A stretch of 63,789 nt of DNA, filler included, from Chiloscyllium plagiosum (taxonomy: Eukaryota), in NCBI RefSeq assembly GCF_004010195.1. It is 5 parts of 5 records of this genome, joined end to end, with 100 filler letters (N's around TTAATTAATTAA, not from the genome) between each part and the next. Parts side by side here need not be neighbours in the genome. Positions count along the whole stretch, not along the records: positions 1 to 17,697 come from NW_025212804.1; 4 more parts are not named here. One strand, written 5' to 3'. Shown here piece after piece: positions 3,086 to 58,427 of the stretch. The first letter of the stretch is position 1, and each line of letters starts with the position of its first letter. A program made the position numbers and the translations under genes. The notes below the pieces were generated by a model. The model was not told where the DNA came from. It worked only from the letters and a program-made list of their open reading frames with translations, and did not search any database.

Positions 3086-4050
3086 CACATCGAGGGTGAA
3101 TATCCAATGTGGCAGATGTGAGACAGAGAGAGAGGGACAAGTCCTGGTCACCACATTCTGGGAAGGATGTGATTGTACTTGAGAGGGTACAGGGGAGATT
3201 TCCCAGAATGCTGCCTGAATCTGAGCTTTGAGAAAAGGTTGGAAAGGTTGGGGTTGTTTTCCTTGGAGCAGATAAGATTATTCAGAGCAGTGATAGGGTG
3301 GGTAGGAAAGCACTTTTTGCATGAGACAAGGACTCAATAACCTGGGACAGAGATTGAAGGTAACACAGACATGGCCACGTAGAAACTGCTGCAGGAGTTG
3401 GCCATTCGGCCCTTTGAGCCTGCTCTGTCATTCAGTATGATCATGGCTGACCCTCTCTCTCAAAGCCATATTCCTGCTTTCTCTCTATTCCCTTCATGCT
3501 GTTAAAATGCAAACAACTATCTCTCTCTTTTTCTTGAATATATTCAGTTCCTTATCCTCCACAGCCTTCAGTGAAGAGAATTCCACAGGTTGACCACCCT
3601 CTAAGTGAAGAAATGTTTCCTTATCTCAGTCCAAAATGGACTACCCCGTATCTCCCTGAGACTGTGTCCCCTGGTTCCAGACACCCCATCCAGGGGAAAC
3701 CTCCTCCCTGCCCAGCCCTGTTAGAATTTTATACATCCATCTGAATTCGAGTGAGTCCAGGCCCAGTCGAGTTGGAGAGTGAGAGGAGAGTTGAGGAGAA
3801 CTGTTTTCACCCAGAGGGTGGTGGGAGTCTGGAACTCACTGCCTGAAAGGCTGGTTGAGTCACAAATTCTCGTGACAGTGGAGCAGTGTTTAGATATTCC
3901 CTTGTGTTGCTGTAGCCTCCAGGGTAATGGGCCAAGAGCTGGAGGTTGGGATTAGTGTCATCAGATCTTTGTTTAACATCACAGATATAATGGACCAAAT
4001 GGCCTCATTCACTGCTGTTCACATCAATCACTCTGAGACAGAGAGAGAGA

Positions 4051-4148
4051 AGAGGAAGTGCGAGGGACTGATGTGGCTCTCTCTGCCTGATGCCATTTAC
4101 ATACTGAGGAACACCCAGTCAGACTCTCACAGGCTGCAGATTTATAAA
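4051..4148 (+). promoter_or_regulatory. Ig kappa V1 promoter: PU.1/ETS site, octamer-like motif, TATA box
   Basis: AGAGGAAGTG 4051-4060; ATTTACAT 4095-4102 (1 mismatch to octamer ATTTGCAT); TTTATAAA 4141-4148; leader ATG at 4209. Confidence 0.7.
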
Positions 4149-4208
4149 GCAGAGCCCAGTGAAGGGAGAGTTTATCAGGAACCAGGCACAGGGACAGGAG
4201 CACACACC

Positions 4209-4257
4209 ATGATTTCACACATCCAGCTGATCTGGCCACTGGCATTCTGTGTCACAG
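4209..4257 (+). CDS. IGKV: Ig kappa V1 leader exon (MISHIQLIWPLAFCVT-G)
   Basis: 16 codons plus 1 nt, then GT donor at 4258; phase-1 intron 4258-4443 ends in a pyrimidine tract and CAG. Confidence 0.9.
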
Positions 4258-4443
4258 GTACAAATGTCTCTCCTTCCACCTTGAATCTTTCGCGGCTCTC
4301 CATTTCACTCCAATTCCACTGACTTGTGATTGAAGGGAAAATGCTGAAACCAGAGGAATGCTCAGTGTCTCCAACAATCTCTCATTTGACAGGCTCTTTC
4401 TGTGACAGTTCTGACTTCACTGTGTTTCTCTCTGACCCCTCAG

Positions 4444-4740
4444 GTATCAGTGGGGACATCATCATGACCCAGTCTCCCCCGGTGCTGTCAGTGGGACTGG
4501 GCCAGACCACAACCATCACCTGTAAGGCCAGTCAATCTGTGAGCAAGTGGGTTAGCTGGTTCCAGCAGCGAGAAGGACAGAAACCCTCTCCCCTGATCTA
4601 TCAAGCAACAAATCGATTCACAGGAGTCTCCGATCGATTCACCGGCAGTGGATCAGGGACCAGTTTCACCCTGACAATCAGCAACGTTCAGAATGAGGAT
4701 GTCGTTGACTCTTACTGTCAGCAGTATAACAGCTATCCCT
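4444..4740 (+). pseudogene. IGKV: Ig kappa (NS4-like) V1 exon; open frame but no RSS and no J, probable pseudogene
   Basis: [31 protein letters not shown]...WFQQ...[16 protein letters not shown]...[11 protein letters not shown]. Followed by AT and then J-C intron sequence instead of CACAGTG. DYYC is changed to DSYC and KPSLLIY to KPSPLIY. Confidence 0.9.
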
Positions 4741-4929
4741 ATGTTATTAACCCTGTCAATACTGAAACACACTTTCTAAAATACAGTTGCTGAATTGTTG
4801 AAGTTGTTAGTGGGGAGCTGCAGTGAATGAAATGGTTGATTGAGGAGCACTGTGTCTAACAGCGTGTCCAGCTGTATTTCTTTAGTTCCATTGCCCCCCG
4901 TTAAGCAGCAAGATATAATTCAGTAAGTT

Positions 4930-5160
4930 TTACTCACCGTGTGGAGGAGCTCTGTCCATTTGCAACCCATGGTCCCATTCCTGCAGCATGGAGTGAAATC
5001 AGTGAGTAGCCTCCTGCCAGTCTCAGTGTGACGGACACAGGCAGAGTTTGATGTGAGCTCTGGCTCCCTGTCCCAGTCCCTGATCTCACTGACCTCAGCA
5101 GCAGCACAGTGAGACACCGAGCTCCCACCTCCCCCAGCTTTAACTCTGCTCAATCATACA
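4930..5160 (+). promoter_or_regulatory. Conserved unique J-C intron block (candidate intronic enhancer)
   Basis: Near-identical at 30725-30975 and inverted at 39620-40245; contains ATTTGCA(A/G) at 4958 and an isolated CACAGTG at 5105-5111. Function is inferred. Confidence 0.4.
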
Positions 5161-5669
5161 ATCACAGAATTGTGACAGTGCACAAGGAGGCCATTCTGTC
5201 CATCCTGTGTGTCCTGGCTCTCTGAATGAGCAATTCACTGAGTGTCATTCTCCTGCCTTCTCCCTGTCACCCTGCACTTTGTTTCTTTTCGAATAACAGT
5301 CTCATTCCCTTTGGAATGTTTTAATTGAAGCTGCCTCCACCACACTCTCAGGCAGTGCATTCCACACCTTAACCACTCATTGGCTGAACATGTTGTTCCC
5401 CATCTCACTTTTGTTACTTTTCCCAATTACTTTCAATCTGTGGTCTCTGTCTCAATCCTTTCTCAATTGGGAACATTTTCTCCCTATTTACTATGTCCAG
5501 GCCCCTCCTGGTTTTAATTCCTCGAACAAATCTCCTTTCAGCCTTGCCAAAGAAGACAGTCCCAAATTCTCCTATCAAACTTCATAACTGATGTTCCTCA
5601 TCCCTGAAATGATCTTTGGGATTATTTTTTGCCATTTCTACAAAACGTCACCTTCTTCCTGAATTATTC

Positions 5670-7560
5670 ACATTTTCTATGTCCCTCATGATTTTATAAA
5701 CCTCTACAAGGTCACTCCTCAGACTCTTACGCATCAGAGTAAAAAGTCTCAGATTTTCCACCTCTCATAGTCCTGGAGTCATACAGCGTGGAAACAGACC
5801 TTTCAGTTCAACTTGTCCATGCTAACCAGATATCCTAAACTGACCTCATCCCATTTGCCAGCATTTGGCTTACATCCCTCTAAACCCTTCCTATCCATGT
5901 ACCTTTCCCAATGTGTTTTAAATGCTGTAATTGTATCTGCCTCCAACACTTTCTCTGGCAGCTCGATCCATACACATACCACCCTCTGTGTGACAAGTTA
6001 CCCCTCAGGTCCCTTTTGAATCTTTTGCCTCTCACCTTAAACCTATGCCATCTTGTTTTGGACTCCCTTTCCCAAGGAAAAGGCCTTAGATATGCACCCT
6101 GTCCATGCCCCTCATGGTTTTATACACATCTATAAGGCCATCCCTCAGCCTTGAATGCTGCAGGAAAAATAGCCCCAGTTTCTTCAGCCTTTCCCTGAGG
6201 CTCAACCCTTCCAATTCCTGGCCATGTCCTTATAAATCTTTTCTGCAGCTTTTTAAGTATAACAACATCTTTCCTATCACAGAATGATCAGAATTGTTCA
6301 CATTATTCCCAAAGTGGTCTCACCAATCTCCCATACAGCTGCACCATGATGTCCCAACTCCTGTACTCAATGCAGTGACCAATAAAGGCAAGTGTACCCA
6401 ACACCTTCTTCATTGCCCTGTCTCCCTGTGACCCCACTTTCAAGGAATAATGCACCTGCATCATCACCCCTAGGTCTCTGTGTTCAGCAACACTCCACAG
6501 GGCCCTCCCATTAACTGTATACGTCCTGCCCTGGTTTGCCTTTCCAAAATGCAACACCTCATATTTATCTAAACTTAACTCCACTTGCCACACCTCTGCC
6601 CATTGCCCCATATGATCAAGGTCCCACTGTACCCTGAGATGATTTTCTTCACTATCCACTGTCCCGCCAATTTTGATGTCATCTACAAACTTACTGTAAC
6701 TCTTATATTCACATCCAAATCATTTCTTTAAATGACAAAAGCAGTGGACCCAGCACCAATGCTTGTGGTAGATCTCCAGTCTGAAAAACAACCCTTTACC
6801 ACCACACTCTGTCTCCTATCTTCAATCCATTTTTTTACCCCAATGGCTCACTCCCTCTGGATCCCATGTGGTCTAACCTTACTGACCAGTCTATCATGTA
6901 GAACCTTGTCAAACACTTTACTGAAGTCCATATAGACAATGTTTACTGTTCTGCCTTCATCAATCTTCTTTGTCACCTCCTCAATCAAATTCAGGAGACA
7001 TGAATTCCTATGCATAGAACCACATTGATTATCCAAAGAATGTAAATCCTATCCCACAGAATCCACTCCAACATGTTACCCAGCACTGACATCAGGCTCA
7101 CTGGTCTATAGTTCCCTGGCTTTTCCTTACCGTCTTTCTCAAATAATGGCATAACATTGGCCAACCTATCTGGTTCTCCAGCACCTTACGCATGGTTGTC
7201 AGTGATACACATATCTCAGCAATGGGCCCAGCAATCTCTTCCCTAGTTTCCCACAATGTTCTGGGATACACATGATCAGGTCCTTGGGTTTATCTACCTT
7301 TATGTGTTTTAAGATCTTTTGTGTCTCCTCATTTGTGTGTGGTCTCTTTTCAAGTCATCACTATTTCTCCAAATTCCCTAGCTTCCTCCACAGTAAATAC
7401 TGACCTGAAATATTTGTTTGGGATCTCACCCATCTCTTGTGTCTTACCAAAATACAGCACTCACATTTATCTGAATTAAACTCCATCTGCCATTCCTCAG
7501 CCCACTGGCCCAGTTGGTCAAGATTCCATTGTATTCTTAGACAGCCTTCTTCGTTGCCAA
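5670..7560 (-). mobile_element. CR1 LINE ORF2/3' fragments
   Basis: ORFs 6303..6659(-) and 6848..7036(-) give CR1 RT motifs (YMDFSKVFDKV, LHFGKANQGRTYTVNG); paralogous to ~31480-33660. Confidence 0.85.
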
Positions 7561-7561
7561 T

Positions 7562-7880
7562 AATTAGATTAGATTCTCTACAGTGTGGAAACAGGCCCTT
7601 CAGCCCAACAAGTCCACACTGATCCTCCGAAGAGAACCCACCCAGACCCATTTCCCTCTCTGTAATGTATCTAACACTCTGGACAATTTGGCATGGACAA
7701 TTCACCTGACCTGCACATCTTTGTGACCATGGGAGGAAACCCACGCAGACATAGGGAGAATGTGCAAACTCCATTCACCTAAGGCTGGAATCGAACCTGG
7801 GACCCTGGTACTGTGAGGCTGCAGTGCTAACCACTGAGCCACCATGCTGCCCCACCGGAGCCACCACTGAGCCACCGATG
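7562..7880 (-). mobile_element. HE1-like SINE, diverged
   Basis: attagattag tail and reverse-complement SINE core; counterpart at 33680-33980. Confidence 0.75.
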
Positions 7881-8439
7881 CCTCCTGAAAATTCACCTGA
7901 ACACACTCTTGCAACTCTGGCCCCTCTCTGCCCATTACACTGCTGCTACTCCAAACTATATTCAGAAAGTAAAGACCCCCATTCTCATCATTCTCATCAG
8001 AATTCTGAACTGAATCCTAGTTGGAGAGTGGGATGCACTCAGGGGATTCCTGTAGTAGCTGCCTGGTCCTTTTGGACTGTCTTTGGTCCTTTGGTCCTTT
8101 CTCCCTGCATACTCTAAAGCTGCAGAGTGACCACATCTAGAAACGTGCTCTCCACGGAGCTCTCAGCCTCACGGACGCTCCGCACTGACACCAGCTGCTG
8201 CTCAAGCTCCGAAACCCGGAGCTCCAACTGCTGTCACTGACCACACTTCCTGTACTCGTGGTATTCCAGGAGCGAGGATACATTCTGAAGTTCCCACATG
8301 GATGCACACTCTTTCCATTCTTGGATTATCTCTTTGCAGAGTTCTGGTGACAAACAGCTACAGCAGGGCTCACAGTCCAGTGGGTTCAGTGTTCCAGGGT
8401 TTTGGGGAAACTCTAAAGAAGTCTTTAAGAAACAGGAGC

Positions 8440-10090
8440 AGAAATCAGCCATTCAGCCCATGGAATCTGCTCTGCCATTTGATCTTGGCAGATATGCTTC
8501 TCACCCCCATTCTCCTGCCTACTCCACAGGAACCTTCCACCCCCTTAACAATCACGAACCTATCTATCTCTGTCTTAAATACACTCAGTGACTTGGCCTC
8601 CACTGCTCTCTGTAACAATGAGTTCCACAGATTCCCCACCCTCTGGCTGAAGAAATTCCTCCTCATCTCAGCTCAACAGGGTTGGACCTTCATTCTGAGG
8701 CTGTGCCTTGGTTACCTTGTCTCTCCTGTTTTTGGAAACATCTTCTCTGCATCCACTCTATCCAGGCCTGTCAGCATTCTGTAAATTTCAAGAAGGTCCC
8801 TCCTCATCCTTCTAAACTCCATCGAGTACAGACCCAGAATCCTCAACCATGCCTCATATGACAAGCCCTTCATCCCCAGGATCATTCTTGTAAACCCCTT
8901 CAATGCCAGCACATTGTTTCATAGAATATGGGTCCCAAATCTGCTCACAATATTCCAAATTCAGTCTGACCAGAGCCTTACACAGCCTAAGGAGTACATC
9001 TCTGCCCTTGTATTCTAGCCATATTGAAATGAATGCTAACATTTCATTTGCCTTCCCAAGCACAAACTGGACCTGCCTGTTAACCTTAAGAGAAACCTGA
9101 CTGAGGTTTGTGCTTTAGATCTCCAAATGCTTTCCTTATTTAGAAAATACCTCCACACCCTGACTCCATTGATTCCTGAAAGATCATCACCAGTGTCCCC
9201 ATAATCTCCTCAGTGATATCCTTCAGAACACACTGGTGTAGTTCATCCAGTCTGGGTGAGTTATCCACATTCAGACCTTTCAGCTTCCCCAGTACCTCCT
9301 CCTTAGTGATGGCCACTACACTCCCCTCTGCCCCCTGACAGTCTTGAAGTACTGGGACATTGCTGGTGTTTTCCATTGTGCAGTCTGATGTAATGTATGG
9401 ATTCAATGCCTCGGCTTTTTCTTCATTTTCCTATTATTCTTTTTCCAATGTCTATTTCTACCTCCCTCTTCATTTTTATATGTCTGATGAAACTCTTGCA
9501 ATCTTCTTTTATATTACTTGTTCGCTTTCCCCCACATTTCACCTTCTGTCCCTGAATGTTTTTTTTTTAGTTATCCTCTACAGGTTTTTAAAGATTTCCT
9601 AACCCTCTGGCTTCCCACTATTCTCCACCACATTGTATGCCTTTTCCTTTTGCTTTTATGCTGTCCTTGACCTCCCCCATCAGCCATGGTTGCCTTGTCC
9701 TCCCCTTAGTCTGTTTCTTCTTTTTCAGGAGGAATTCCTGCTCTGCTTCCTGAATTACTCCCAGAAACTCTGCTGTTTGCTGCCCCACCATCTTACCTGC
9801 TCGGCTCCCCTTCCAATCAACTCTGGCCAGCTCCTTCCTCATGTCTTTGTACTTACCTTTACTCAATTGAAATACTGTTCCATCTGATTGCAGCTTCTCC
9901 CTCTCAAACTACAGTGGGAATTCTATCATATTATGGTCACTTATCCAGAGGGATACTTTCATCTTCAGCTCACTAACCAAGTTTGCCTCATTACACATTA
10001 CTGAATCCAAAACTGCCTGTTCCAAATGATCAACCACAAGCTGTTTCAAAAACCATCTTGTAGACAATCCATGAAATCCTTTTGTTGAGA
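8440..10090 (-). mobile_element. CR1 LINE ORF2 fragments
   Basis: RRNFFSQRVGNLWNSL, LEYCEQIWDPY, EVLGKLKGLNVDNSP motifs; paralogous to ~34530-36080. Confidence 0.85.
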
Positions 10091-10881
10091 TGCACTACCC
10101 AGTCCACCTATCCACTGAAGTCTGCCATAACATTTTGTATTTGGCTTTTCTGTCTCTAGTTCCCAACTTCGAGCTCAGCACTGTCTCCATAACTTGTCCT
10201 ACCGGCCTATCTTCTTTTCCACCTATCCACTCCACCCTCCCACCCCCTATTGTGCTCAACTATTGTACTCTATGCTACTTTCTCCCCACCCCCACCCTCC
10301 TCTCACTTTTCTCTCCACCCTTCAGGCTGTCTGCCTCTATTCCTGATGAAGGGCTTTTGNNNNNNNNNNNNNNNNNNNNNNNNNNNNNNNNNNNNNNNNN
10401 NNNNNNNNNNNNNNNNNNNNNNNNNNNNNNNNNNNNNNNNNNNNNNNNNNNNNNNNNNNNNNNNNNNNNNNNNNNNNNNNNNNNNNNNNNNNNNNNNNNN
10501 NNNNNNNNNNNNNNNNNNNNNNNNNNNNNNNNNNNNNNNNNNNNNNNNNNNNNNNNNNNNNNNNNNNNNNNNNNNNNNNNNNNNNNNNNNNNNNNNNNNN
10601 NNNNNNNNNNNNNNNNNNNNNNNNNNNNNNNNNNNNNNNNNNNNNNNNNNNNNNNNNNNNNNNNNNNNNNNNNNNNNNNNNNNNNNNNNNNNNNNNNNNN
10701 NNNNNNNNNNNNNNNNNNNNNNNNNNNNNNNNNNNNNNNNNNNNNNNNNNNNNNNNNNNNNNNNNNNNNNNNNNNNNNNNNNNNNNNNNNNNNNNNNNNN
10801 NNNNNNNNNNNNNNNNNNNNNNNNNNNNNNNNNNNNNNNNNNNNNNNNNNNNNNNNNNNNNNNNNNNNNNNNNNNNNNNNN

Positions 10882-11519
10882 GGTTGTTGTGGTTTGGCGG
10901 TGGTTGAGTCCAATGACCTGCATATCCTCGGTGGAGTGGGAGGGGGAGTTGAAATGCTGTGCCACAGGTTGGTTGGGTTGGTTCGTCCGGGTGGCCCAGA
11001 GGTGCTCTCTGAATCGCTCCGCAAGTAGGTGGCCTGTCTCCCCAATATAGAGGAGGCCACACCGGCTGCAGCGGATGCAGTAGATGATGTGGGTGGAGGT
11101 GCAGGTGAATCTGTGGCGGATATGGAAGTTTCCTTTGGGGCCTTGGAGAGAAGTGAGGGGGGAGGTGTGGGCGCAAGTGTTGCACCTCCTGCGGTTGCAA
11201 GGGAAGGTGCCGGGAGTGGAGGTTGGGTCGGTGGGGGGTGTGGATCTGACAAGGGAGTCGCGGAGGGAGTGGTCTCTACGGAAAGCTGATAGGGGAGGGG
11301 AGGGAAATATATCCTTGGTGCTGGGGTCTGTTTGGAGGTGGCGGAAGTGACGGCGGATGATGCGCTGTACATGGAGATTGGTGGGGTGGTAGGTGAGGAC
11401 CAGTGGGGTTCTGTCCTGGTGGCGGTTGGAGGGGCGGGGCTCAAGGGCGGAGGAGCAGGAAGTGGAGGAGATGCGGTGGAGGGCACCGTCGACCACGTCG
11501 GGGGGGAAATCGTTCCCCT
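10882..11519 (-). mobile_element. Penelope-like element, GIY-YIG endonuclease region (5'-truncated)
   Basis: ORF 10303..11496(-): PLVLTYHP...FPCNRRRCNTC...IIYCIRCSRCGLLYIGETG...RFREH...VAQHFN. Absent from the matching position of cluster 2 (~36630). Confidence 0.9.
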
Positions 11520-12109
11520 CTGCTCATCTGACTGTCCTTTTGATAGGACATGGATCCTTGGATATTTAGTTCCTAGCCCGGATCCCCTTACAGCCATCTC
11601 TCTGTGATACCCACAACATCGTACCTGCCAGTTTCAATCTGCACTACACTCTCATTGTGTATACTGTGTGCATTTAAGTACAACACCCTCAGTCCTGCAT
11701 TGACTGCCCTCCTTCCCATCATTGTCCACTTATCTGCTGTGCTTTACGTTCGATACCTGATCCTTTCCACACTCTGTCCTTTTACATCTTCTAGAATCTC
11801 GAATAATCTCTCCTGAGCCCTCTTCCACTTTAACTAGTTTAAATTCCTTGGAAACTCAATTTACCTTGATTTATGACATCATTTTTCTACCTCACTCGGA
11901 ATGCTTCGTGCATTCAGACACAAAGTCTTTTAAGTTTGATCTCCTATTGATTTCCCTGCACTTTTATGATCCCTTTGATATTCAAAAATTCCATCCCTTC
12001 CTTTTATTTTCTGGTCACAATCAATCCTATCACTAACCAGCAATCCTACCTTCTCCTTTACCTTCCATTTTCTCATTTTCCATCCAACTGAACCAAATTC
12101 CTTTCTCTT

Positions 12110-12690
12110 TCCTATTCATATACCCATCCAAATGCCTTTTAAATGTTATCATACCAGCCTCCACCACTTCCTCTGGCAGCTCATTCCAAAAATGTACCAC
12201 CCTCGGCAGGGATAAGTTTTGCCTTAGTTCCCATTTAGATCGTTCTCCTGATACTTTCCACCTCTGCCCTCTAGTTCTGGACTCCTTCACTCTGACCAAA
12301 ATATCTTCTTGTTTCACTTGATCAATGCCCCTCATGATGTTAGAAACCTCGATATGGTCATCCCTCAGCCTCCAGCGATCCAGAGAAAATAGCCTCAGCC
12401 TATTCAGCCTCTCCCAATCACTCCAACCCTCCAACTTGGCAACATCCTTGGAAATCTTTTCTGAACCATTTTAAGGTTCCCAACATTTTTCCTACAGCAG
12501 GGAGGCCAGAATTCCACACAGTATTCCAAAAGGGGCCAAACTAATGTCCTATACAGGTGCAACAGCTCCTAACTCCAATACTCCTAGCTCCAACTCCAAT
12601 GCATTGCCCAATATAGGAAAGCAAACCAAATGACTTCGTCACCCCCCTCCCCCCCCCTACCTACCTGCAACTCCACTTTCAAGGAACTAA
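12110..12690 (-). mobile_element. CR1 LINE 3' fragment
   Basis: RLNRLRLFSL...VVHFWNELPEEVVEAG...FKRHLDGYM; paralogous to 37570-38170. Confidence 0.8.
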
Positions 12691-13271
12691 CCTTTTTTGG
12701 GATGAACTGGGAGTCTTTCAGTTGTGCTTTTCCTAATCACCTTGTTCAGAAACAAACATCTTGCTTTCACTCTCAACTAAAAATAAGATAAAGGAGGTGA
12801 TGATTTAATAGTACTATTGCTGAGCTGTTCATCCAGAGATCCAGATTAATGTTCTGGGGACCAGGGTTAGACTCCTGCCACAGCAGATGGTGGAATGTGA
12901 ATTCAATAAAAAAATCTGCAATTAAGAGGCTAATGATGACCATGAAACAATTGTTGATTGTCAGGAAAAAGCCATCTGATTCCCTGATGTCCTTTAGGGG
13001 AGGAAACTGCCATCCTTACCATGTGACTCCAGACCCACAGCAATGTGGTTGACTCTAAACTGCCCTCTGGGTGATTAGGGATGGGCAATAAATGCTGATC
13101 CTATCAGTGACACTCATATCCCAAGAAGCAATTTAAACAATGCCTGTATATTTATGGGGTTTGTTAGGTATTGGCTACAAATGTTCAAACGGATTGTTTT
13201 GCCAGTGAATGTTCAGAGAGTTAAAATTCCTTTGAATAGCAGGGATTAAAATTGTTTCTCTTGTCTTTCAG

Positions 13272-13600
13272 GTCATGAGAACTCTCAGCCCAAGCTGACC
13301 TTGCTTCCCCCGTCCCTGGAGCAGGTCAATGCCAAGGGCACTGCCACCCTGGTGTGCCTTGCCAATCACTTCTATCCCGATGAGCTGGAGGTGCAGTGGA
13401 AGAAGGATGGTGCAGTCATTTCGGACGGGGTTCAGACCAGCAACTACCTGCGAGCTTCAGACAGCACCTACAGTGTCAGCAGCCTGCTGACCCTCTCTGG
13501 GTCTGACTGGGAGTCCAACGCTCGCTTCTCCTGTGCCCTCATCCACGTGACTCTCCCCTTTCCCCTCAACAAGAGCATCAGGAGATCAGAATGTGTGTAG
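13272..13600 (+). CDS. IGKC: Ig kappa light-chain constant exon C1 (intact)
   Basis: Acceptor tttcag at 13266-13271, then (S)HENSQPKLTLLPPSLEQVNAKGTATLVCLANHFYPDELEVQWKKDG...STYSVSSLLTLS...RFSCAL...KSIRRSECV*. Both domain Cys and the C-terminal Cys are present; phase matches the J donor. Confidence 0.95.
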
Positions 13601-17697: not shown

Positions 17698-17797
17698 NNN
17701 NNNNNNNNNNNNNNNNNNNNNNNNNNNNNNNNNNNNNNNNNTTAATTAATTAANNNNNNNNNNNNNNNNNNNNNNNNNNNNNNNNNNNNNNNNNNNN
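17698..17797. other. Scaffold gap with artificial TTAATTAATTAA linker (also 38503-38602, 51805-51904, 57690-57789)
   Basis: Identical N44-TTAATTAATTAA-N44 blocks, a six-frame stop linker marking joins of unknown size. Confidence 0.9.
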
Positions 17798-29760: not shown

Positions 29761-29991
29761 CAACCATCACCTGTACGGCCAGTCAAAGCATTAGCAGCAG
29801 CCTTGCTTGGTACCAGCAGCGAGAAGGTCAGAAACCCTCTCTCCTGATCTATTATGCAACAAATCGATTCACAGGAGTCTCCAATCGATTCACCGGCAGT
29901 GGATCAGGGACCAGTTTCACCCTGAAAATCAGCAACGTTCAGAATGAGGATGTCGCTGACTATTACTGTCAGCAGTATTACAGCTGGCCTT
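29761..29991 (+). CDS. IGKV: Ig kappa V2 (3' part; leader and FR1 start lie in the N gap)
   Basis: [76 protein letters not shown]; open frame with canonical residues. Confidence 0.93.
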
Positions 29992-30019
29992 CACAGTGAT
30001 ACAGATCCGTACAAAAACC
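29992..30019 (+). other. 12-bp-spacer RSS of V2 (consensus)
   Basis: CACAGTG-atacagatccgt-ACAAAAACC. Confidence 0.97.
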
Positions 30020-30445
30020 TCAATACACACAGCACCACCTCCTGTACTGATACAAACCAGAGTAATATAAAATGTATAATACTGGACACACACAGTCCCA
30101 CCACCTGAACTGACATATCCGACAGTTCGATATAAATGAAACTGAGCAAATTACCCCATGCTGGGATTGTCACTGTCCACGACACACTCCAGTCCCTGTG
30201 GTGTCCACCGCTCACTGAAAGCCTCAAGTTTCCCTCTTCCACTCCATGGCTACATGTGAAGGGCAGCTGCAAGAATTAACATCGAATTTCACAACTCTCC
30301 CAAGCCCAGCTGCACAACCCAGAGAGACAGAGACAGAGACACAACGACACATGAATGAGGGAAAGACAGAGAGGGGCAGAAAGAGGGTGAGAGTGAATGA
30401 GAGACTGGGAGAGGTTGAGAGTGATGGGGGGAAGCAGAGAGCAGA

Positions 30446-30484
30446 GGTTTTTGTACAGCCTCTCCACTAGGAGCTCTCACTGTG
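30446..30484 (-). other. 23-bp-spacer RSS of J2 (consensus)
   Basis: GGTTTTTGT (30446-30454), 23 nt, CACTGTG (30478-30484). V12/J23 is the kappa-type configuration. Confidence 0.97.
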
Positions 30485-30519
30485 ACTTACGTTCGGTAAA
30501 GGAACCAAGCTCAGACTGA
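30485..30519 (+). CDS. IGKJ: Ig kappa J2 segment (LTFGKGTKLRL)
   Basis: FGxG motif; GTAAGT donor at 30520-30525 in phase 1. Confidence 0.95.
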
Positions 30520-32787
30520 GTAAGTAAACCTCAATCCTCCGTTATTAACCCTGTCAATACTGAAACACAATTTCTAAAATACAGTTGCTGAATTGTTGAA
30601 GATGTTAGTGGGGAGCTGCAGTGAATGAAATGGTTGATTGAGGAGCACTGTGTCTAACAGGGTGTCCAGCTGTATTTCTTTAGTTCCATTGCTCCCTTTA
30701 AAAAACAAGATATAAGTCAGTTAGGTTTACTCACCGTGTGGAGGAGCTCTGTCCATTTGCAGCCTGTGGTCCCATTCCTGCAGCATGGAGTGAAATCAGT
30801 GAGTAGCCTCCTGCCAGTCTCAGTGTGACGGACACGGGCAGAGTTTGATGTGAGCTCTGGCTCCCGGTCCCAGTCTCTGATCTCACTGACCTCAGCAGCA
30901 GCAGCAGCAGCAGCAGCACAGTGAGACACCGAGCTCCCACCTCCCCCAGCTTTAACTCTGCTCATTCACACAATCACAGAATTGTTACAATGCACAAGGA
31001 GGCCATTCTGTCCATCCTGTCTGTACTGGCTCTCTGAATGAGCAATTCACTGAGTGTCATTCTCTTGCCTTCTCCCTGTCACCCTGCACATTGTTCCTTT
31101 TCAAATAACAGTCTCATTCCCTTCGGAATGTTTCAATTGAAGCTGCCTCCACCACACTCTCAGGCAGTGCATTCCACACCTCAACCACTCATTGGCTGAG
31201 CATGTTGTTCCCCATCTCACTTTTGTTACTTTTCCCAATTACTTTCAATCTGTGATCTCTCGGTCATAATCCTTTCTCACTTGGGAACATTTTCTCCCTA
31301 TTTACTATGTCCAGGCCCCTCCTGGTTTCAATTCCTCGAACAAATCTCCTCTCAGCCTTCTCCAAAGAAGACAGTCCCAAATTCTCCAATCAAACTTCAT
31401 AACTGATGTTCCTCATCCCTGAAATGATCTTTGGGAATATTTTTTGCCATTTCTACAAAACGTCACCTCCTTCCTGAATTATTCACATTTTCTATGTACC
31501 TCATGATTTTATAAACCTCTACAAGGTCACTCCTCAGACTCTTACACATCAGAGTAAAATGTCTCAGCTTTTCCGGCCTCTCATTGTCATGGAGTCATAC
31601 AGCGTGGAAACAGACCTTTCAGTTCAACTTGTCCATGCTAACCAGATATCCTAAACTGACCTCATCCCATTTGCCAGCATTTAGCTTACATCCCTCTAAA
31701 CCCTTCCTATCCATGTACCCATCCCAATGTGTTTTAAATGCTGTAACTGTATCTGCCTCCAACACTTTCTCTGGCAACTCGATCCATACACATACCACCC
31801 TCTGTGTGACAAGTTACCCCTCAGGTCTCTTTTGAATCTTTTGCCTCTCACCTTAAACCTACGCCATCTTGTTTTGGACTCCCTTTCCCAAGGATAAGAC
31901 CTTGGATTTGCACCCTGTCCATGCCCCTCATGGTTTCATACACATCTATAAGACCATCCCTCAGCCTTGAATGCTGCAGGAAAAATAGCCCCAGTTTCTT
32001 CAGCCTTTCCCTTTCGCTCAAACCTTCCAATTCCTGGCCATGTCCTTGTAAATCTTTTCTGCAGCTTTTTAAGTTTAACAACATCCTTCCTATCGCAGAA
32101 TGATCAGAATTGTTCACATTATTCCCAAAGTGGCCTCACCAATCTCCTATACAGCTGCACCATGATGTCCCACCTCCTGCACTCAATGCAGTGACCAATA
32201 AAGGCAAGCATACCCAACACCTTCTTCATCAACCTGTCTACCTTTGACCCCACTTTCAAGGAATAATGCACCTGCATCTTCACCCCTAGGTCTCTTTGTT
32301 CAGCAACACTCCACAGGGTCCTCCCATTAACTGTATAACTCCTGCCCTGGTTTGCCTTTCCAAAATGCAACATCTCACATTTATCTAAACTGAACTCCAT
32401 TTGCCACACCTCTACCCATTGCCCCATTTGATCAAGGTCCCACTGTACCTTCTTCACTATCCACTGTCCCGCCAATTTTGATGTCATCTACAAACTTACT
32501 GAAACTCCTATATTCACATCCAAATCATTTCTTTAAATGACAAAGGCAGTGAACCCAGCACCAATGCCTGTGGCACACAGCTATTCACAGATCTCCAGTC
32601 TGAAAAACAACCCTTTACCACCACTCTCTGTCTCATATCTTCAATCCAATTTTTTTACCCCAATGGCTCACTTCCTCTGGATCCCATGTGGTTTAACCTT
32701 ACTAACCAGTCTATCATGTGGAACCTTGTCAAACACTTTACTAAAGTCCATATAGACAATGTTTACTGTTCTGCCTTCATCAATCTT

Positions 32788-36350: not shown

Positions 36351-39300
36351 TACTGCTCCTCAGATGCTACCTGGACTGCTGTGCTTTTCCAGCACCACTC
36401 TAATCTAGAATCTGGTTTCCAGCATCTGCAGTCATTGTTTTTATCCTTTTCTGTCTCCTGATTGATTTCTTTTCCCACACCCTGGTTACTGCTTGGAAAC
36501 CTGGACATAACTTGCATCAGATTCTTTATTTCTTGGGTTCCTCAACTCTCCCCACAGATTCTACACCTTCTGACTGTATCACTTCTTGCTATTGATTTAA
36601 TTTAATTTCTTACTAACAATGCAGCTGCCCATCTGCCTGTCCTTTTGATAGGACATGGATCCTTGGATATTTAGTTCCCAGCCCGGATCCCCTTACAGCC
36701 ATGTCTCTGTGATACCCACAACATCGTACCTGCCAGTTTCAATCTGCACTACAAGCTCATTGTGTACACTGTGTGTATTTAAGTACAACTCCCTCAGTCC
36801 TGCATTGACTGCCCTCCTTCCCATCATTGTCCCCTTATCTGCTGTGCTTTACGTTCGATACCTGATCCTTTCCACACTCTCTGTCCCATTATGTCTTCTG
36901 GAAACTTGAATAACCTCTCCTGAGCCCTTCTCCACTTTAATTAGATTTTATTCCTTGGAAACTCAATTGACCTTGATTAGTGGCATCATTTTGTCTCCCT
37001 TACTCAGAATGCTTCTTGCATTTAGATACAAACTCTTTAAGTTTGTTCTACTATTGATTTCCCTGCACTTTTAAGTTTCTTTTGATATTCAAAAATTCCA
37101 TCCTTTCCTTTTATTTTCTGGTAACAATCAATCCCATCACTAACCAGCAATCCTACCTTCTCCTTCACCTTCCATCGTCTCATTTTCCATCCAACTGAAC
37201 CAAATTCCTTTCTCTTTGGGTTGAGTTCAGGACAATATTTATCCTTGAACCAAAATCATGAAGAATGCTTTTTGATCTCATTGCTTCCAGTGGGATCTTG
37301 CTGTGTAGAAATTGTCTGCCCCTTTCCTGAAATTGCAACAGTGACTGGTTTTCAAGCAAAGTGTAACTGTCTTTGGGAGAGTCTGAGGTAGTGAGGGCTT
37401 GATTGAAACACAATTAGAGTCATGGAGATGTACAGCACAGAAACAGCCTCTTCGATCTGACTCATCCATGCCAGCCACAGAGACATAGAGTCATAGAGTC
37501 AGAGAGATGTACAGCACCGAAACAGACCCTTCTGTGTAACTTGTCCATGCTGACCAGATAACCTAATTTAATCTAGTCCCATTTGTCAGCATTTGGCCCA
37601 TATCCTTCTAAACCCTTCCTATTCATATACCCATCCAAATGCCTTTTAAAGGTTATCATACCAGCCTCCACCACTTCCTCTGGCAGCTCATTCCAAAAAT
37701 GTACCACCCTCTGCAGGAAAAGGTTATGCCTCAGTTCCCGTTTAAATCGTTCTCCTGATACTTTCCACCTGCGCTGTCTAGTTCTGGACTCCTTCACTCT
37801 GACCAAAATATCTTCTTGTTTCACTTGATCAATGCCTCCGATGATGTTAGAAACCTCGATATGGTCATCCCTCAGCCTCCAGCGATCCAGGGAAAATAGC
37901 CTCAGCCTATTCAGCCTCTCCTGATCGCTCAAACCCTCCAACTTGGCAACATCCTTGGAAATCTTTTCTGAATCTTTTTAAGATTACCAACATTTTTCCT
38001 ACAGCAGGGAGGCCAGAATTCCACATAGTATTCCAAAAGGGGCCAAACTAATGTCCTTTACAGGTGCAACAGCTCCTAACTCCAATACTCAATGCACTGC
38101 CCAATAAAGGAAAGCAAACCAAATGACTTCGTCACCCCCCCTACCCACCTGCAACTCCACTTTCAAGGAACTAACCTTTTTTGGGAGGAACTGGGAGTCT
38201 TTCAGTTGTACTTTTTCTAATCACCCTGTTCAGAAACAAATTTCTTGCTTTCACGCTCAACTAAAAATAAGATAGAGGTGATGATTTCATGGTACTATTG
38301 CTGAGCTGTTCATCCACAGATCCAGATTAATGTTCTGGGGGCCAGGGTTAGAATCCTGCCACAGCAGATGGTGGAATGCGAATTCAATAAAAAAAAATCT
38401 GCAATTAAGTGTCTAATGATGACCATGAAACAATTATTGATTGTCAGGAAAAAGCCATCTGATTCCCTGATGTCCTTTAGGGAAGGAAACTGCCATCTTT
38501 ACNNNNNNNNNNNNNNNNNNNNNNNNNNNNNNNNNNNNNNNNNNNNTTAATTAATTAANNNNNNNNNNNNNNNNNNNNNNNNNNNNNNNNNNNNNNNNNN
38601 NNGCTCAAAAGGAGGAATCTCCAAGATTACCCCCATTGACACAAGTGAGAATAGAAAGAGGAGGATAGCACAGGTGACTGTGGAACTGAAAAGACAGTCC
38701 AGGAGGAAGGGTTTTCGATTATTTTAACATTGGGACTGGCTTTGGGGGGAGATGGACATGTACAGACCAGACGGGTTGCTCCTGAACAGACCTGGGACTG
38801 AGTTCCTTTGGGGTGATTTACTAGTACTTCTGAAGAGGGTTTAAACTAACTTGGCTGGGCTGTGGGATCCAGGAGGTAATACCAGAGAGGAACAAAGAGG
38901 TGCACAGAATCCTGGGAGAGATACATAGCACCAGAATAAGGAATAGAACTTCTTACCCAGTTTCAGAGTGAGGGAGAGAGAGTAATAAATTCTAAATCAG
39001 GGTCACTGTGTAAGGATGGGACTGCATGGAGTGTTGGGAATAAGACTGGGAAGGTACATCCACAGAGTGTTTAGTGGAAATCTGATGTGTGTCTCTCACA
39101 TAGGAAGATAAGATAATAAGAACATTAGAAATAGGAGCAGGAGTGGGCTATCTGACCCATTGAGGATGAGGGACGTTAGTTATGAAGATAGACTGAAGAA
39201 GTTGGGACTGTCTTCCTCAGAGAAGAGAAGGCAGAGAGGAGATTTGATCGAGAAATTCAAAATCAGGAGGGGTCTGAACAGAGTAAACCAGGAGAAAATG

Positions 39301-40629: not shown

Positions 40630-40664
40630 TCAGTCTGAGCTTGGTTCCTTTACCGAACGTAAGC
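40630..40664 (-). CDS. IGKJ: Ig kappa J3 segment (LTFGKGTKLRL)
   Basis: Reverse complement of J2 with one change at the first base; GTAAGT donor retained. Confidence 0.93.
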
Positions 40665-40703
40665 CACAGTGAGAGCTCCCAGTGCAGAGGCTGTACAAAA
40701 ACC
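40665..40703 (+). other. 23-bp-spacer RSS of J3 (consensus)
   Basis: CACAGTG 40665-40671, 23 nt, ACAAAAACC 40695-40703. Confidence 0.96.
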
Positions 40704-41084
40704 TCAGCTCTCTGCTTCCCTCTGTCACTCTCACCCTCTGCCTATCTCCCAGTCTGTCGATCACTCTCACCCTCTTTTTGTGTCTTTCTGTCTCTGCCTC
40801 TGGGTTGTGAACTTTATTTTTCGTTGTTAAATCTTGCAGCTGTTCTTCACATGTGGCCATGGAGTGGAAGAGGGAAACTTGAGGCCTTCAGTGAGCGTTG
40901 AGACACCACAGGGACTGGAGTGTGTCATGGACAGTGACCATCCCAGCATGGGGTAATTTGTTCAGTTTCATTTAGATCTAACTGTGGGATATGTCAGTTC
41001 AGGCGGTGGGACTGTGTGTCCATTATTATGCATTTTATATAACTGTGGATGTGTCAGTACAGGAGGTGGTGCTGTGTGCTTTGA

Positions 41085-41112
41085 GGTTTTTGTACGGCTC
41101 TGTATCAATGTG
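41085..41112 (-). other. 12-bp-spacer RSS of V3 (variant heptamer CACATTG)
   Basis: Minus strand CACATTG-atacagagccgt-ACAAAAACC. Confidence 0.92.
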
Positions 41113-41409
41113 AAGGCCAGCTGTAATCCTGCTGACAGTAATAGTCAGCGACATCCTCATTCTGAACGTTGCTGATTTTCAGGGTGAAACTGGTCCCTGA
41201 TCCACTGCCGGTGAATCGATTGGAGACTCCAGTGAATCGAGTTGTTGCAGCATAGATCAGGAGAGAGGGTTTCTGACCTTCTCGCTGCTGGTACCAGGAA
41301 AGCTCATTGCTAACATATTGACTGGCCGTACAGGTGATGGTTGTGGTCTGGCCCAGTCCCACTGACAGCACTGGGGGAGACTGGGTCATGGTGATGTCCC
41401 CACTGATAC
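41113..41409 (-). pseudogene. IGKV: Ig kappa V3 exon; intact frame but promoter and leader exon deleted
   Basis: [42 protein letters not shown]...[11 protein letters not shown] (297 nt, same as V1). At ~41567 sequence matching 4040 joins sequence matching 4286. Confidence 0.88.
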
Positions 41410-43494
41410 CTGAGGGGTCAGAGAGAAACACAGTGAAGTCAGAACTGTCACAGAAAGAGCCTGTCAAATGGAGATTGTTGGAGACACTGAGCTTTCCTCT
41501 GGTTTCAGCAGTTTCCCTTCAATCACAAGTCAGTGGAATTGGAGTGAAATGGAGAACAGCTAAAGATGTCTCAGAGAGTGATTGATGTGAACAGCACTGA
41601 ATGAGGCCATTTGGCCCATTGTGTTTGTGCTAGTAAACAAAGATCTGATGACACTAATCCCATCCTCCAGCTCTTGGCCCATTACCCTGGAGGTTACAGC
41701 AACACAAGGGAATATCTAAACACTGCTCCAATGTCACGAGACAAAACCAGCCTTTCAGGCAGTGAGTTCCAGACTCCCACCACCCTCTGGATGAAAACAT
41801 TTCTTCTCAACTCTCCTCTCACTCTGCAACTCAACTGGGCCTGGACTCACTCGAGTTTAGAAGGATGAGACGGGATCTGATTGAAACATATAAAATTCTA
41901 ACAGGCCCGGGCAGGGAGGAGGTTTCCCCTGGTTGGGGAGTCTGGAACCAGGGGGATAGGGGGTAGACCATTTAGGACTGAGATGAGGAAACATTTCTTC
42001 ACTCAGAGGATGGTCAACCTGATGAATTCTCTACCACAAACGGCTGTGGAGGATAAGGAAGTGAATATAAGAAAAAAAAGAGTTGTTTTGCATTTTAACA
42101 GCATGAACGGAATGGGGAGAAAGCAGGAATGTAGCATTGAGAGAGAGGGTCAGCCATGATCATACTGAATGACACACAAGACTCAAAGGACCGAATGGCC
42201 TGTTCCTGCTCCATGTTTCTATGTGTCCATGTCTGTGTTACCTTCAATCTCTGTCCCTGGTTATTGAGTCCTTTACTCTTGTATAAAGTGCCTTCCTATG
42301 CAACGTATCACTGCCAACAATTATCTTAGAACATAGAACATAGAACAATACAGCACAGAACAGGCCCTTCGGCCCACGATGTTGTGCCGAACATTTGTCC
42401 TAGCTTAAGCACCCATCCATGTACCTATCCAATTGCCGCTTAAAGGTCATCAAAGATTCTGACTCTACCACTCCCACAGGCAGCGCATTCCATGCCCCCA
42501 CCACTCTCTTATACCTCTCTATCAGCTCCCTCTCAACCTTCAATGCTCCAAGGAAAACAATCCCAACCTTTCCAATCTTTCCTCATAGCTGACCCTCCAT
42601 CCCAGGCAGCATCCTGGGAAATCTCCTCTGCTCCCTCTCAAGTATAATCACATCCTTCACAGAATGTGGTGACCAGGAGCTCTTTCTCTCTCTCTCTTTT
42701 CCCCTTTCTGTCTCACATCTGCTACTTTGATCTCTCTACATCTATCTCTCTCTCCCACTGTTAGTCTCTCTCATATTCTCTCGCTCTCACTCTGTCTCAT
42801 AGCCACTCTCTCCAACTCATTCACGCTTCCTCACTCCGTCTCATAATCTTTCTCCATCTCTCACTGTCTCCATCACTTGCTCCATCTCTCACTTCAATTG
42901 AAAGCCTGCAAATGTTATCTACCCCTCTCTATTTCTCCCTCTGTCTCTCCCTCCTTCTCCGCATCCCAATCGACCTCTATGTCTCTCTCTCTCTGTCTCG
43001 CTTCTCTCTCTTTCTCACAGTGTCCCAGGTGGTGACAGTTGAATGCAGGATAAATCTCTCCCTCTGCTCTGCCCCACAAATGGATGTTAACCCTTGACCC
43101 CAGAATCATGTCTTCTCCTGGAGTAAAGGCCCATTTCCACATTGACCAGGTTTTGGTATCTCTCAGGAAGATGGACAGATTCTTTTTAAATGAAGGGCAG
43201 TTTTGTGCTGTTGGCCTATTCTCACTGGGGACTGGTTTGGACACAAACCTCATTCCATGAAGGCCCAGCAGAGAGAGGAGATCCCCAGGCCATCAGTATG
43301 AGCTGGAGGGACAGGACAGGCTCTGACCCACTGACCCATCCTGTCCATTCACAACATGTTCCAATCCCTTCCCCTGTCCTTCCCCTTCCATGGTCAGGTT
43401 CTGGGTCAGGGTGTTTTACTGGGATGAGGGCTGGACCATCACACAGTTACAACAGAAAGGAACTGAACCCCATACCCACCATGGTGTCCACGAT

Positions 43495-56664: not shown

Positions 56665-57810
56665 CTGAAAAACAAGAGAAGCAATTTTAATCCCTGCCTT
56701 TTGAAGGGATTTTAACTCTCTGAACATGAACTGGCAAAACAATCCATTTTGAACATTTGTTGCCAACTCCTAACAAACCCCATAAAAGAACAGACATTGT
56801 TTAAAGTGCATCTTGGGATGTGGGTGTCACTGGTAGGGCCAGCATTTATTGCCCATCCCTAATTGCTCCTGAGAAGGTGATGGTGAAAGAGAAGGGACAG
56901 TTTTGGACCATAGTTTATGGAATGAATGTGGGCAGCTGGAAGGGCTCTCAATGGGGGAGCATTTCAGTGACAGTGATCAGAACTCAGTGAGATTGAGAGC
57001 AGGGATGGAAATGGAGAACCATGGGGCAAGTGTAAACGTTTTCATTTGGGACCAAAACCATTTTACTAAACAGGGCAGGGATTGGGTAAAAGTGGGATGA
57101 AAGACAAAATGCAGGGGTGTAATTTACCAGGACCTGAGGAAAGCAAAGAGCTGACAGGATGAGATGTGTCCAAACGAAGTGAAGGAAATCCCAGTGATGT
57201 TTATAATCACAGAAAGAACAAGAAGAGAATGAAGGAATGTATGGGGCCCATTAGAGAGCAGAAAGGGAACTTGTGTGCGGTGGTCAAGATGGAGCAATGG
57301 TTCCTCATGAAATCTTTCGGTCTGTTTTCACAAAAGAGAGGGACAAAGCAGAAACTGTAGTTGAGGAGGAGGACTGTGCAACATTGGAACGGCATCTTTC
57401 ACATCTGAAAGATTCCCAGTTCATCCAAAGAAAAGAAAGATTCATGCTGTCCCCAAGACATTTGCAGACAGTGTGGGACTTGTTTGAAATGAGGTCACTG
57501 AAGGAATGCAGGAAATGTGGAAGCCAGATTTTACACAGCAAGATCCCACAAGTAACAATGAACCCAGGAACATTTTGAGTGACGTTTGTTCAGGGATAAA
57601 TATCAGTTTGAAATACAATTCAAAGAGAAAATAACTGGAATATTTGGATGAAAAATGAGAAAATGAAAGTTAAAGGAGAAGGGAGGATTNNNNNNNNNNN
57701 NNNNNNNNNNNNNNNNNNNNNNNNNNNNNNNNNTTAATTAATTAANNNNNNNNNNNNNNNNNNNNNNNNNNNNNNNNNNNNNNNNNNNNTTAACTCCTTC
57801 ATATTTAATC

Positions 57811-57933: not shown

Positions 57934-58089
57934 GTAAGTGTATTTTTCAGATGATATTATTTATTAGCATCCATTGTTTTTCTTGGCTTTCTTTCACTCG
58001 TTATATATTTCTATCTTTCATTCTTACCTCATATAATTTAAAGATCCACCCGGTTCTGATTTGATTCTCTCCCGCTTCTTTTTCCTCAG

Positions 58090-58388
58090 TCGTGAACTCA
58101 CAAACTATCCGCCAGGTTCCAACCGCTGTTTCCAAATTACCCGGGAAGAGTGTGGAACTGAAGTGTTTTGTGGATGGGACTAGCAGTAACCCTACTATGC
58201 TCTGGTACAGACAATACCCGGGGAAAGGGCCACAGGTGATGTTTTATTCCACTGCTATCAATTATGTGAATCCAGAGGATGCGGTGGACGGTTTTACCGC
58301 ACAGCGACCAAGTGGTTCTGAGTTCAACCTGAAGACCTCCAGCCTGTGGGTGAATCACACGGCCATGTATTTCTGCGCCTGGAGTCTT
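58090..58388 (+). CDS. TRBV: T-cell receptor beta V segment, TRBV30-like, apparently functional
   Basis: VNSQTIRQVPTAVSKLPGKSVELKCFVDGTSSNPTMLWYRQYPGKGPQVMFYS...FTAQRPSGSEFNLKTSSL...AMYFCAWSL. SQTI-Q-P, GTS-NP, WYRQ, FYS and CAWS match the mammalian TRBV30 type. Confidence 0.85.
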
Positions 58389-58427
58389 CACAGTGACTCA
58401 GAGAGAGGGAGCAGCTCAACAAAAACC
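58389..58427 (+). other. 23-bp-spacer RSS of the TRBV (consensus)
   Basis: CACAGTG 58389-58395, 23 nt, ACAAAAACC 58419-58427. Confidence 0.96.

What the first reader, a model, noticed from the sequence alone, without database searches (positions are those of the whole stretch)
4715..4793. Germline RAG-type scar: V1 coding end joined past J, deleting both RSSs and the whole J
Seen: V1 ends CAG CAG TAT AAC AGC TAT CCC T (4740), the same length as V2 up to its heptamer (29991). Next come 2 extra bases (AT) and then gttattaaccctgtcaatac, which in cluster 2 starts at 30541, 21 nt past the J exon. So 549 nt (equivalent to 29992-30540: 12-RSS, spacer, 23-RSS, J and donor) are replaced by AT. Known: cartilaginous fish carry germline-joined Ig genes attributed to RAG activity in germ cells. 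Inference: a left breakpoint exactly at the coding/heptamer border, plus a possible P (A) and N (T) nucleotide, indicates a heritable RAG cut. The J end lost 56 nt, so this is a failed join that inactivated the cluster rather than the usual in-frame pre-joined VJ. The unjoined sister cluster sits next to it as a template.
Basis: partly seen in the sequence, partly recalled or inferred. Interest (0 to 1): 0.85.

Follow-up and report, generated by a model that had tools for sequence, protein, structure and literature searches.

The report
J-less germline-joined shark kappa pseudogene
A shark antibody light-chain gene lacks its joining segment and both cutting signals because of a 549-base deletion that starts where the immune recombinase would cut; it is likely an inherited, dead leftover of a germ-cell rearrangement that probably lost 50 more bases later, a broken variant of the pre-joined shark genes already known.

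Summary
The deletion is real at the stated coordinates. Cluster 1 of a shark Ig kappa (NS4-type) array lacks 549 nt relative to its sister: both RSSs, J and the donor. The break starts at the V coding end. An RSS-blind deletion would give this geometry about 1.4 times in 10,000 (rough simulation).

V end + J trimmed by 4 nt + a 50-nt deletion between two CGTT 4-mers (30490-93, 30540-43) + one CpG decay reproduces the junction with one mismatch (chance fit 5 of 1616). Best reading (0.45): an ordinary out-of-frame germline VJ join, then a later microhomology deletion. A one-step RAG join with 55-56 nt of resection remains possible (0.30).

Framework and C-exon decay point to an old pseudogene. 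Germline status is not shown: the three contig sets laid lack cluster-1 alleles, and no listed piece spans the junction. Germline-joined kappa pseudogenes are known (PMC2193156); I found no J-less one in six searches, but one key paper was unavailable. No earlier scan note describes this.

The parts
4095..4102 (+). Octamer-like promoter element of cluster 1 (ATTTACAT variant)
   Evidence: read-through of C. punctatum models P0003 and P0005 over this stretch fits the same variant, so it is probably not a defect
4209..4257 (+). Leader exon of cluster 1, intact; 186-nt intron 4258-4443 retained
   Evidence: the 186-nt GT..AG splice is seen in related RNA data (table 5); 186 bp is the NS4 leader-intron length in PMC2193156
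4444..4740 (+). V kappa 1 (NS4/type III); open frame with three framework substitutions (FR2 L>P, A>V and Y>S just before the second Cys)
   Evidence: V-set E 1.8e-13; 71-84% identity to Chiloscyllium kappa V models
4741..4742 (+). Junction letters AT; best parsed as one J base (equivalent of 30489) plus a CpG-decayed C of the shared CGTT
   Evidence: the parse is inferred
4743..13271 (+). J-C intron remnant lacking its first 21 nt and its donor; one N gap (10360-10881)
   Evidence: collinear with cluster 2 from 30541
4741..4793 (+). Run-on of the V frame into the intron; stop at 4791-4793, giving a J-less V with a 17-residue tail
   Evidence: the tail is in 0 of 41 shark kappa models inspected and a search with it found no candidate
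13272..13600 (+). C kappa exon of cluster 1; open frame, 4 substitutions unseen in 10 related C models
   Evidence: C1-set E 3e-21
29761..30019 (+). Sister cluster 2: V (5' end in an N gap) and perfect 12-RSS (29992-30019)
30446..30519 (+). Cluster 2 23-RSS (30446-30484) and J (30485-30519); first CGTT at 30490-30493
30540..30543 (+). Second CGTT in the cluster 2 intron, 50 nt after the one in J; coincides with the right breakpoint
40630..41409 (-). Cluster 3, unjoined V-12RSS-23RSS-J; serves as a second comparator

Best explanation
Cluster 1 is a kappa light-chain gene that lacks both RSSs, J and the J donor, and it was likely made in two inherited steps: a RAG-type V-J join in a germ cell, then a separate 50-base microhomology deletion. 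Step 1 (inferred): RAG cut at both RSSs and NHEJ joined an untrimmed V end (4740) to J trimmed by 4 nt with no added bases. Equivalent parses share 1-2 nt between V and J. That join would be out of frame, with a stop two codons after the junction codon, so the gene was dead from then on. Step 2 (inferred): a 50-nt deletion between the CGTT in J and the CGTT in the intron removed the rest of J and the donor. Step 3 (inferred): CpG deamination turned the surviving C into the T at 4742. The gene then decayed as a pseudogene. Shown: the deletion, its ends, the 4-nt repeat in the sister cluster, the one-mismatch fit and the substitutions. Inferred: RAG as the agent, germ-cell origin, the order of events and the intermediate.
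For: The model reproduces cluster 1 across the junction with one mismatch, a CpG>TpG at 4742; 10 of 78 CpGs in the aligned flanks show this change. A random breakpoint plus two random letters fits this well (microhomology >=4) in 5 of 1616 cases within 30500-30600, or 1 of 101 with AT fixed. A 4-nt J loss matches wild-type mouse J trimming (means 3-5.9 nt over 82 joints, PMC4041462 Table 2) and the NS4 germline joints (J-side loss, little TdT evidence, 2 of 6 joined genes are pseudogenes; PMC2193156). 7 of 24 genome-based Chiloscyllium/Hemiscyllium kappa models run V straight into J, one of them out of frame (P0052). RSS-blind deletions do occur in these clusters: 245 nt in cluster 3, and 712 and 53 nt at single-copy-like depth in run X3. 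Decay: A>V in 0 of 41 and Y>S in 0 of 41 shark V models, L>P in 1 of 41; 4 C substitutions unseen in 10 models whose own unique changes number 0-2. No GTG or CAC lies near the right breakpoint, so there is no cryptic RSS.
Against: It needs two rare events plus one mutation, and the intermediate was not seen. At microhomology >=3 the chance fit rises to 32 of 1616, or 3 of 101 with AT fixed, and the model was found after looking at the data. None of the 11 indels of 5 nt or more inside the 8,412 aligned nt of clusters 1 and 2 exceeds 19 nt, so 50-nt deletions are not common there. V1's own ancestral end is unknown: 7 models from catshark, horn shark and basking shark end in 'TA' before the heptamer, which explains the A without any J remnant. 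The V-into-J gene models could be annotation artefacts of rearranged transcripts; their DNA was not seen. No run laid holds cluster 1, so inheritance is unproven.
Confidence: 0.45

Rival explanations
1. One-step failed germline RAG join. RAG cut both RSSs, the V end stayed intact, and the J end was resected 55-56 nt before a direct join. AT is then germline V (23- or 24-nt class) and/or a P nucleotide or a CpG-decayed intron C.
For: It needs only one event. The left end is at the coding border. A 'TA' coding end is common in other sharks: 7 models, four of them with the same P-Y ending as V1. T would be the correct P base for an end in A. Resected, often direct RAG joins exist under alternative end joining (PMC11290492 passages).
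Against: 56 nt is about ten times normal J trimming (PMC4041462 Table 2). No clear 23-nt 'PY' end was seen among 24 bamboo/epaulette models (P0010 ends YT but is truncated), and none of the six 24-nt Chiloscyllium read-through ends is Tyr. It leaves the J/intron CGTT coincidence to chance (1-3 of 101). The in-register CCT microhomology is not used cleanly: the next two bases differ.
Confidence: 0.3
2. Ordinary RSS-blind germline deletion that happens to start at the V coding end, possibly helped by the CCT shared in register between the V end (4738-4740) and the intron (30536-30538).
For: Large deletions unrelated to RSSs are frequent in these clusters: cluster 3 lost 245 nt; X3 shows 712 and 53 nt and X9 108 nt. 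Among 30 such deletions, one would start within 3 nt of the coding end with probability 0.11.
Against: Both ends fitting has probability 1.4e-4 per deletion and 0.004 for 30 deletions (log-uniform lengths of 40-1000 nt assumed). A CCT join needs two further substitutions, one a C>A seen at 13 of 2201 non-CpG C sites.
Confidence: 0.13
3. Not germline: an assembly or library chimera between two clusters, or a somatic B-cell product captured from blood DNA.
For: The assembly is gappy (18 N runs) and the locus is multi-copy. No listed contig or read spans the junction, and cluster-1 letters at 4294 and 4804 are absent from all three contig sets laid.
Against: The two sides share at most 3-4 nt, too little for an overlap-based misjoin (inference). 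Both flanks are equally diverged from the same sister cluster. Decay extends to the C exon 8.5 kb away. Cluster 2's letter at the 4804-equivalent site is also absent from those runs, so they are probably of other species or haplotypes. A single-cell product would lack coverage (inference).
Confidence: 0.1

Closest known systems
Germline-joined NS4 (kappa) genes of nurse shark, especially the pseudogenes R6 and R19 (Lee et al. 2000, PMC2193156)
   Same: Same isotype, same mix of joined and split clusters, 186-nt leader intron retained, RSSs fully excised, V end at the coding border, no need for N bases.
   Different: Those keep J and its donor (they were typed with a J primer). Here J and the donor are gone, so such a gene would be invisible to that assay. 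Those were shown in erythrocyte DNA of several sharks; this one is seen in one assembly only.
Partly joined germline IgH/IgNAR clusters and the germline hybrid joint of horned shark (as described in PMC2193153, PMC4279169; pre-joined D in bamboo shark IgNAR, PMC8692893)
   Same: Inherited products of RAG-type activity, including non-standard ones.
   Different: Those end at RSS borders on both sides; here the right end lies 56 nt beyond the J border, with no RSS-like sequence.
Alternative end-joining of RAG breaks at mouse Ig kappa (PMC11290492)
   Same: RAG-initiated breaks repaired with resection, giving direct or microhomology joints.
   Different: Somatic and seen in NHEJ-deficient cells; it applies here only under the one-step rival.
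VpreB, proposed by Lee et al. as a possible ancient rejoined V with a non-J tail (PMC2193156, PMC2193153)
   Same: V domain with no RSS and no J, ending in an unrelated tail.
   Different: VpreB is functional and conserved (recalled); V1 has damaging framework changes, kappa ancestry and no evidence of expression.

Membership tests
Shark Ig kappa (NS4/type III) cluster | V-12RSS / 23RSS-J / C minicluster | tested here: met
   RSS-J layout in sister clusters 2 and 3; cluster 1 keeps leader, V and C
Shark Ig kappa (NS4/type III) cluster | V and C proteins closest to named shark kappa chains | tested here: met
Germline-joined Ig gene (Lee 2000) | Both RSSs and the intervening DNA completely removed | tested here: met
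Germline-joined Ig gene (Lee 2000) | V ends at or within a few nt of its coding border | tested here: met
   Same length as V2 and V3; V1's own ancestral length (22-24 nt class) is not known
Germline-joined Ig gene (Lee 2000) | J fused to V with only small trimming | tested here: not met
   J is absent today; at most 1-5 nt can be read as a J remnant. So it is not filed as a standard member, only as a likely derivative of one.
Germline-joined Ig gene (Lee 2000) | Little or no N addition | tested here: inconclusive
   No non-templated base is needed under the best parse, but other parses exist
Germline-joined Ig gene (Lee 2000) | Genomic, not retroposed (leader intron kept) | tested here: met
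   186-nt intron 4258-4443
Germline-joined Ig gene (Lee 2000) | Present in non-lymphoid DNA of several individuals | tested here: inconclusive
   Best public runs hold at most 0.37 of the words; 4 of 24 runs were laid, none shows cluster 1
RAG join to a cryptic RSS | Heptamer-like CAC/GTG at the second breakpoint | tested here: not met
   None in 30520-30560 or in the cluster 3 equivalent
VpreB-like J-less V protein | Open V frame with a unique tail and no RSS | tested here: met
VpreB-like J-less V protein | Conserved framework under selection | tested here: not met
   Two changes seen in 0 of 41 models and one in 1 of 41
VpreB-like J-less V protein | Expressed and pairs with heavy chain | not testable with these tools
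   No run of this haplotype was available

The most novel reading that the evidence does not exclude
A fossil of a failed germline V(D)J reaction: RAG cut in a shark germ cell and the J end was resected about 56 nt before joining in one step. This would show that germ-cell RAG breaks escape to resection-type repair and that such errors are inherited. The product, an RSS-free, J-less V exon with a 17-residue tail, has the architecture proposed for the birth of VpreB, and genes of this class would have been missed by every J-primer survey.
Probability: 0.3. Interest if true: 0.65.

Novelty: new variant of a known kind. Interest (0 to 1): 0.42.

Why it matters
Germline RAG activity in sharks is inferred mostly from joined genes found with V and J probes or primers, which select for tidy products. 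J-less or over-trimmed scars would be an unselected record of how often RAG cuts in germ cells and how the ends are repaired, and long-read shark genomes now allow them to be counted. If the two-step reading holds, this is only a decayed member of a class known since 2000, and a caution that a 'P+N' junction can be a J remnant plus CpG decay.

Tried and rejected
- No whole genome is held for this window, so no genome-wide scan of clusters was possible.
- Run search: 24 runs listed, best share 0.37; no RNA holder listed.
- Lay of 4 of those 24 runs on 4060-5260 at 85%: 24 pieces shown and 2113 not shown, 20 loose ends shown and 298 not shown, 40 differences shown and 50 not shown. No listed piece spans the junction. 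The RNA run X23 gave 10 reads, none 99% alike. This is inconclusive, not negative.
- Protein search with the run-on tail: no candidate. The exact V1 frame is not in the collection.
- Metagenome scans for shark kappa DNA: 0 matches; 0 of 191 stretches confirmed.
- Earlier scan notes: nothing on this feature.
- Iacoangeli et al. 2017 on shark light-chain genes was not held, so nothing of it was seen; it may describe such pseudogenes.
- The sequence figures of PMC2193156 (Figs 3 and 7) are not held, so NS4 coding ends could not be compared. No supplements were consulted.
- Rejected: cryptic RSS at the right end; retrocopy (intron kept); pure CCT microhomology join (needs two further substitutions); functional VpreB-like gene; octamer defect (the variant appears shared).
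- No structure prediction was run, because the frame is decayed.

Full report
What the window holds. V1's best matches are kappa models of Chiloscyllium, Hemiscyllium and Scyliorhinus. An earlier AI note calls this genome a bamboo shark; I did not verify the species. The assembly has 18 N runs and no whole genome is held.

The observation. All coordinates check out: V1 and V2 are the same length from the Cys codon; AT follows; 4743 resumes at the equivalent of 30541; 549 nt are missing, 56 of them from the J start onward. Upstream flanks differ from cluster 2 by 3.9% and 4.9%, downstream by 4.7% and 4.6%, which fits one cluster with an internal deletion. A rough simulation of RSS-blind deletions over 1,750 nt, with assumed log-uniform lengths of 40-1000 nt, puts the left end within 3 nt of the coding border in 0.4% of cases and both ends as seen in 0.014%. 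For 30 deletions the figures are 0.11 and 0.004. RSS-blind deletions are real here: cluster 3 lost 245 nt including octamer and leader, and run X3 shows 712- and 53-nt skips at depths 32 and 27.

The junction has three parses. Lee et al. report little TdT evidence in germline NS4 joints (PMC2193156). (b) A longer V end. Read-through gene models show that coding ends vary: 24 nt in six Chiloscyllium models and one zebra shark model, 30 nt in two, 22 nt in V2, V3 and P0054, and 23 nt ending TA in seven catshark, horn shark and basking shark models, four of which end P-Y like V1. AT could thus be V-coded, or V-coded A plus a P or CpG-decayed T. No clear 23-nt P-Y end was seen in the 24 bamboo/epaulette models. 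(c) A J remnant. J carries A then CGTT at 30489-30493, and the intron carries CGTT at 30540-30543, exactly at the right breakpoint. V1's end, J base 30489 and the intron from 30540 reproduce cluster 1 with one mismatch, C>T in a CpG; that change affects 10 of 78 CpGs in the flanks. Random breakpoints with two random letters fit as well in 5 of 1616 cases (32 of 1616 at microhomology >=3); with AT fixed, in 1 and 3 of 101. The model was found after seeing the data, so these numbers are indicative only. There is no CAC or GTG near the right end, so a cryptic RSS is excluded.

Mechanism. I commit to parse (c): a germ-cell RAG join of an untrimmed V to J minus 4 nt, out of frame, followed by a 50-nt microhomology deletion and CpG decay (0.45). 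Each step is of an ordinary kind. Wild-type mouse J trimming averages 3-5.9 nt (PMC4041462 Table 2). Two of six joined NS4 genes are pseudogenes, and J-side loss is typical of them. Seven of 24 genome-based bamboo/epaulette models run V directly into J, including one out-of-frame case (P0052), although these may be annotation artefacts. Against it: two rare events are needed, the intermediate is unseen, and none of the 11 indels of 5 nt or more within 8,412 aligned nt exceeds 19 nt. The one-step rival (0.30) needs about ten times the normal resection but only one event, and such joints occur under alternative end joining (PMC11290492). RAG-first readings together get about 0.75, an RSS-blind deletion 0.13, and an artefact or somatic origin 0.10. 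These odds are my judgement and rest partly on guessed rates.

Age and function. V1 stays in frame and runs on to a stop at 4791-4793, but it carries A>V and Y>S changes seen in 0 of 41 shark models and L>P seen in 1 of 41. Its C exon has 4 changes unseen in the 10 of 13 models that align full length, against 0-2 unique changes in those models. Some of these could be species differences. The tail is in none of the 41 models, and a search with it found nothing. This fits a long-dead gene and argues against a somatic product, but it is indirect.

Germline status is not shown. No public run holds more than 0.37 of the words of 4480-5000. I laid 4 of the 24 listed runs. At 4294 and 4804 all contig depth in X1, X3 and X9 carries another letter, and at 4711 all depth in X3 and X9 does; no listed piece spans the junction; most pieces and loose ends were not shown. 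Cluster 2's letter at the 4804-equivalent site is absent too, so these runs are probably other species or haplotypes, and the test is inconclusive. One X1 loose end at 4735 is a V-J junction from a V family with an S-Y-P end, so such ends exist in a close relative.

Comparison with what is known. Germline-joined kappa genes, joined pseudogenes and a germline hybrid joint are published (PMC2193156: parts 1-4, 6 and 7 of 7 read, figures not visible; PMC2193153: parts 1-2 of 3; PMC4279169, PMC2435157, PMC8692893, PMC12227049, PMC11290492, PMC4041462: passages only; PMC6901605: one reference line). Cluster 1 fails one defining feature of that class, a J fused to V, so I file it as a likely derivative and not a standard member. 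Six library searches listed no report of a J-less germline join. The library lacks most subscription papers, and Iacoangeli et al. 2017 could not be read. Earlier scan notes hold nothing similar.

Verdict. The feature is real in the assembly, probably RAG-initiated and probably inherited, and most likely a decayed out-of-frame germline join rather than a single exotic event. It is a new variant of a known kind; interest 0.42, or 0.65 if the one-step resection reading is confirmed.

Noticed in passing
window 58065-58427 (+) and about 60400-60750 (+): A V-set exon ending CAWSL with a perfect 23-RSS, and a decayed second copy with a degenerate RSS. The best non-scFv structure hits are TCR beta chains. 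They lie beyond a 100-base scaffolding gap (57690-57789), so a kappa-TCR beta linkage is unproven.
   Followed up: partly
window 41567-41568 (-), cluster 3: A 245-nt RSS-blind deletion (equivalent of 4041-4285) removes the octamer and leader exon; the 12-RSS heptamer is also mutated (CACATTG). Cluster 3 is probably a pseudogene too.
   Followed up: yes
window about 56664-56335 (-): A further C kappa exon with a frameshift near its 3' end and no V or J before the gap at 57690; 10.8% diverged from cluster 1's C region.
   Followed up: no
window 4923-4928: A donor-like GTAAGT present in cluster 1 but not in clusters 2 or 3, 130 nt after the run-on stop. It could allow splicing to C, but the stop comes first.
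   Followed up: partly
window 5105 and 30917: A lone CACAGTG in the J-C intron of clusters 1 and 2, without a nonamer. It recalls the mammalian kappa intron heptamer (recalled), but the window has 28 such 7-mers on both strands, so chance is likely.
   Followed up: partly
window 17698-17797, 38503-38602, 51805-51904, 57690-57789: Four gaps of 44 N + TTAATTAATTAA + 44 N look like scaffolding marks. Clusters 2 and 3 face each other across one of them and both lack their C exon here, so order and orientation across these gaps are uncertain.
   Followed up: no
run X3 laid on window 4160-4873 and 4508-4562: Single-copy-like deletions of 712 and 53 nt in a relative's kappa clusters, neither anchored at an RSS; the first removes leader, V and J.
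   Followed up: no
proteins P0045, P0049, P0053, P0062, P0130, P0063, P0052: Genome-based models in which V runs straight into J (six in frame, one out of frame). If real, germline kappa joins are common in bamboo and epaulette sharks.
   Followed up: partly
protein P0032: A shark-type kappa leader and V filed as a Salmonella hypothetical protein on a 299-nt contig; probably contamination of that record.
   Followed up: no
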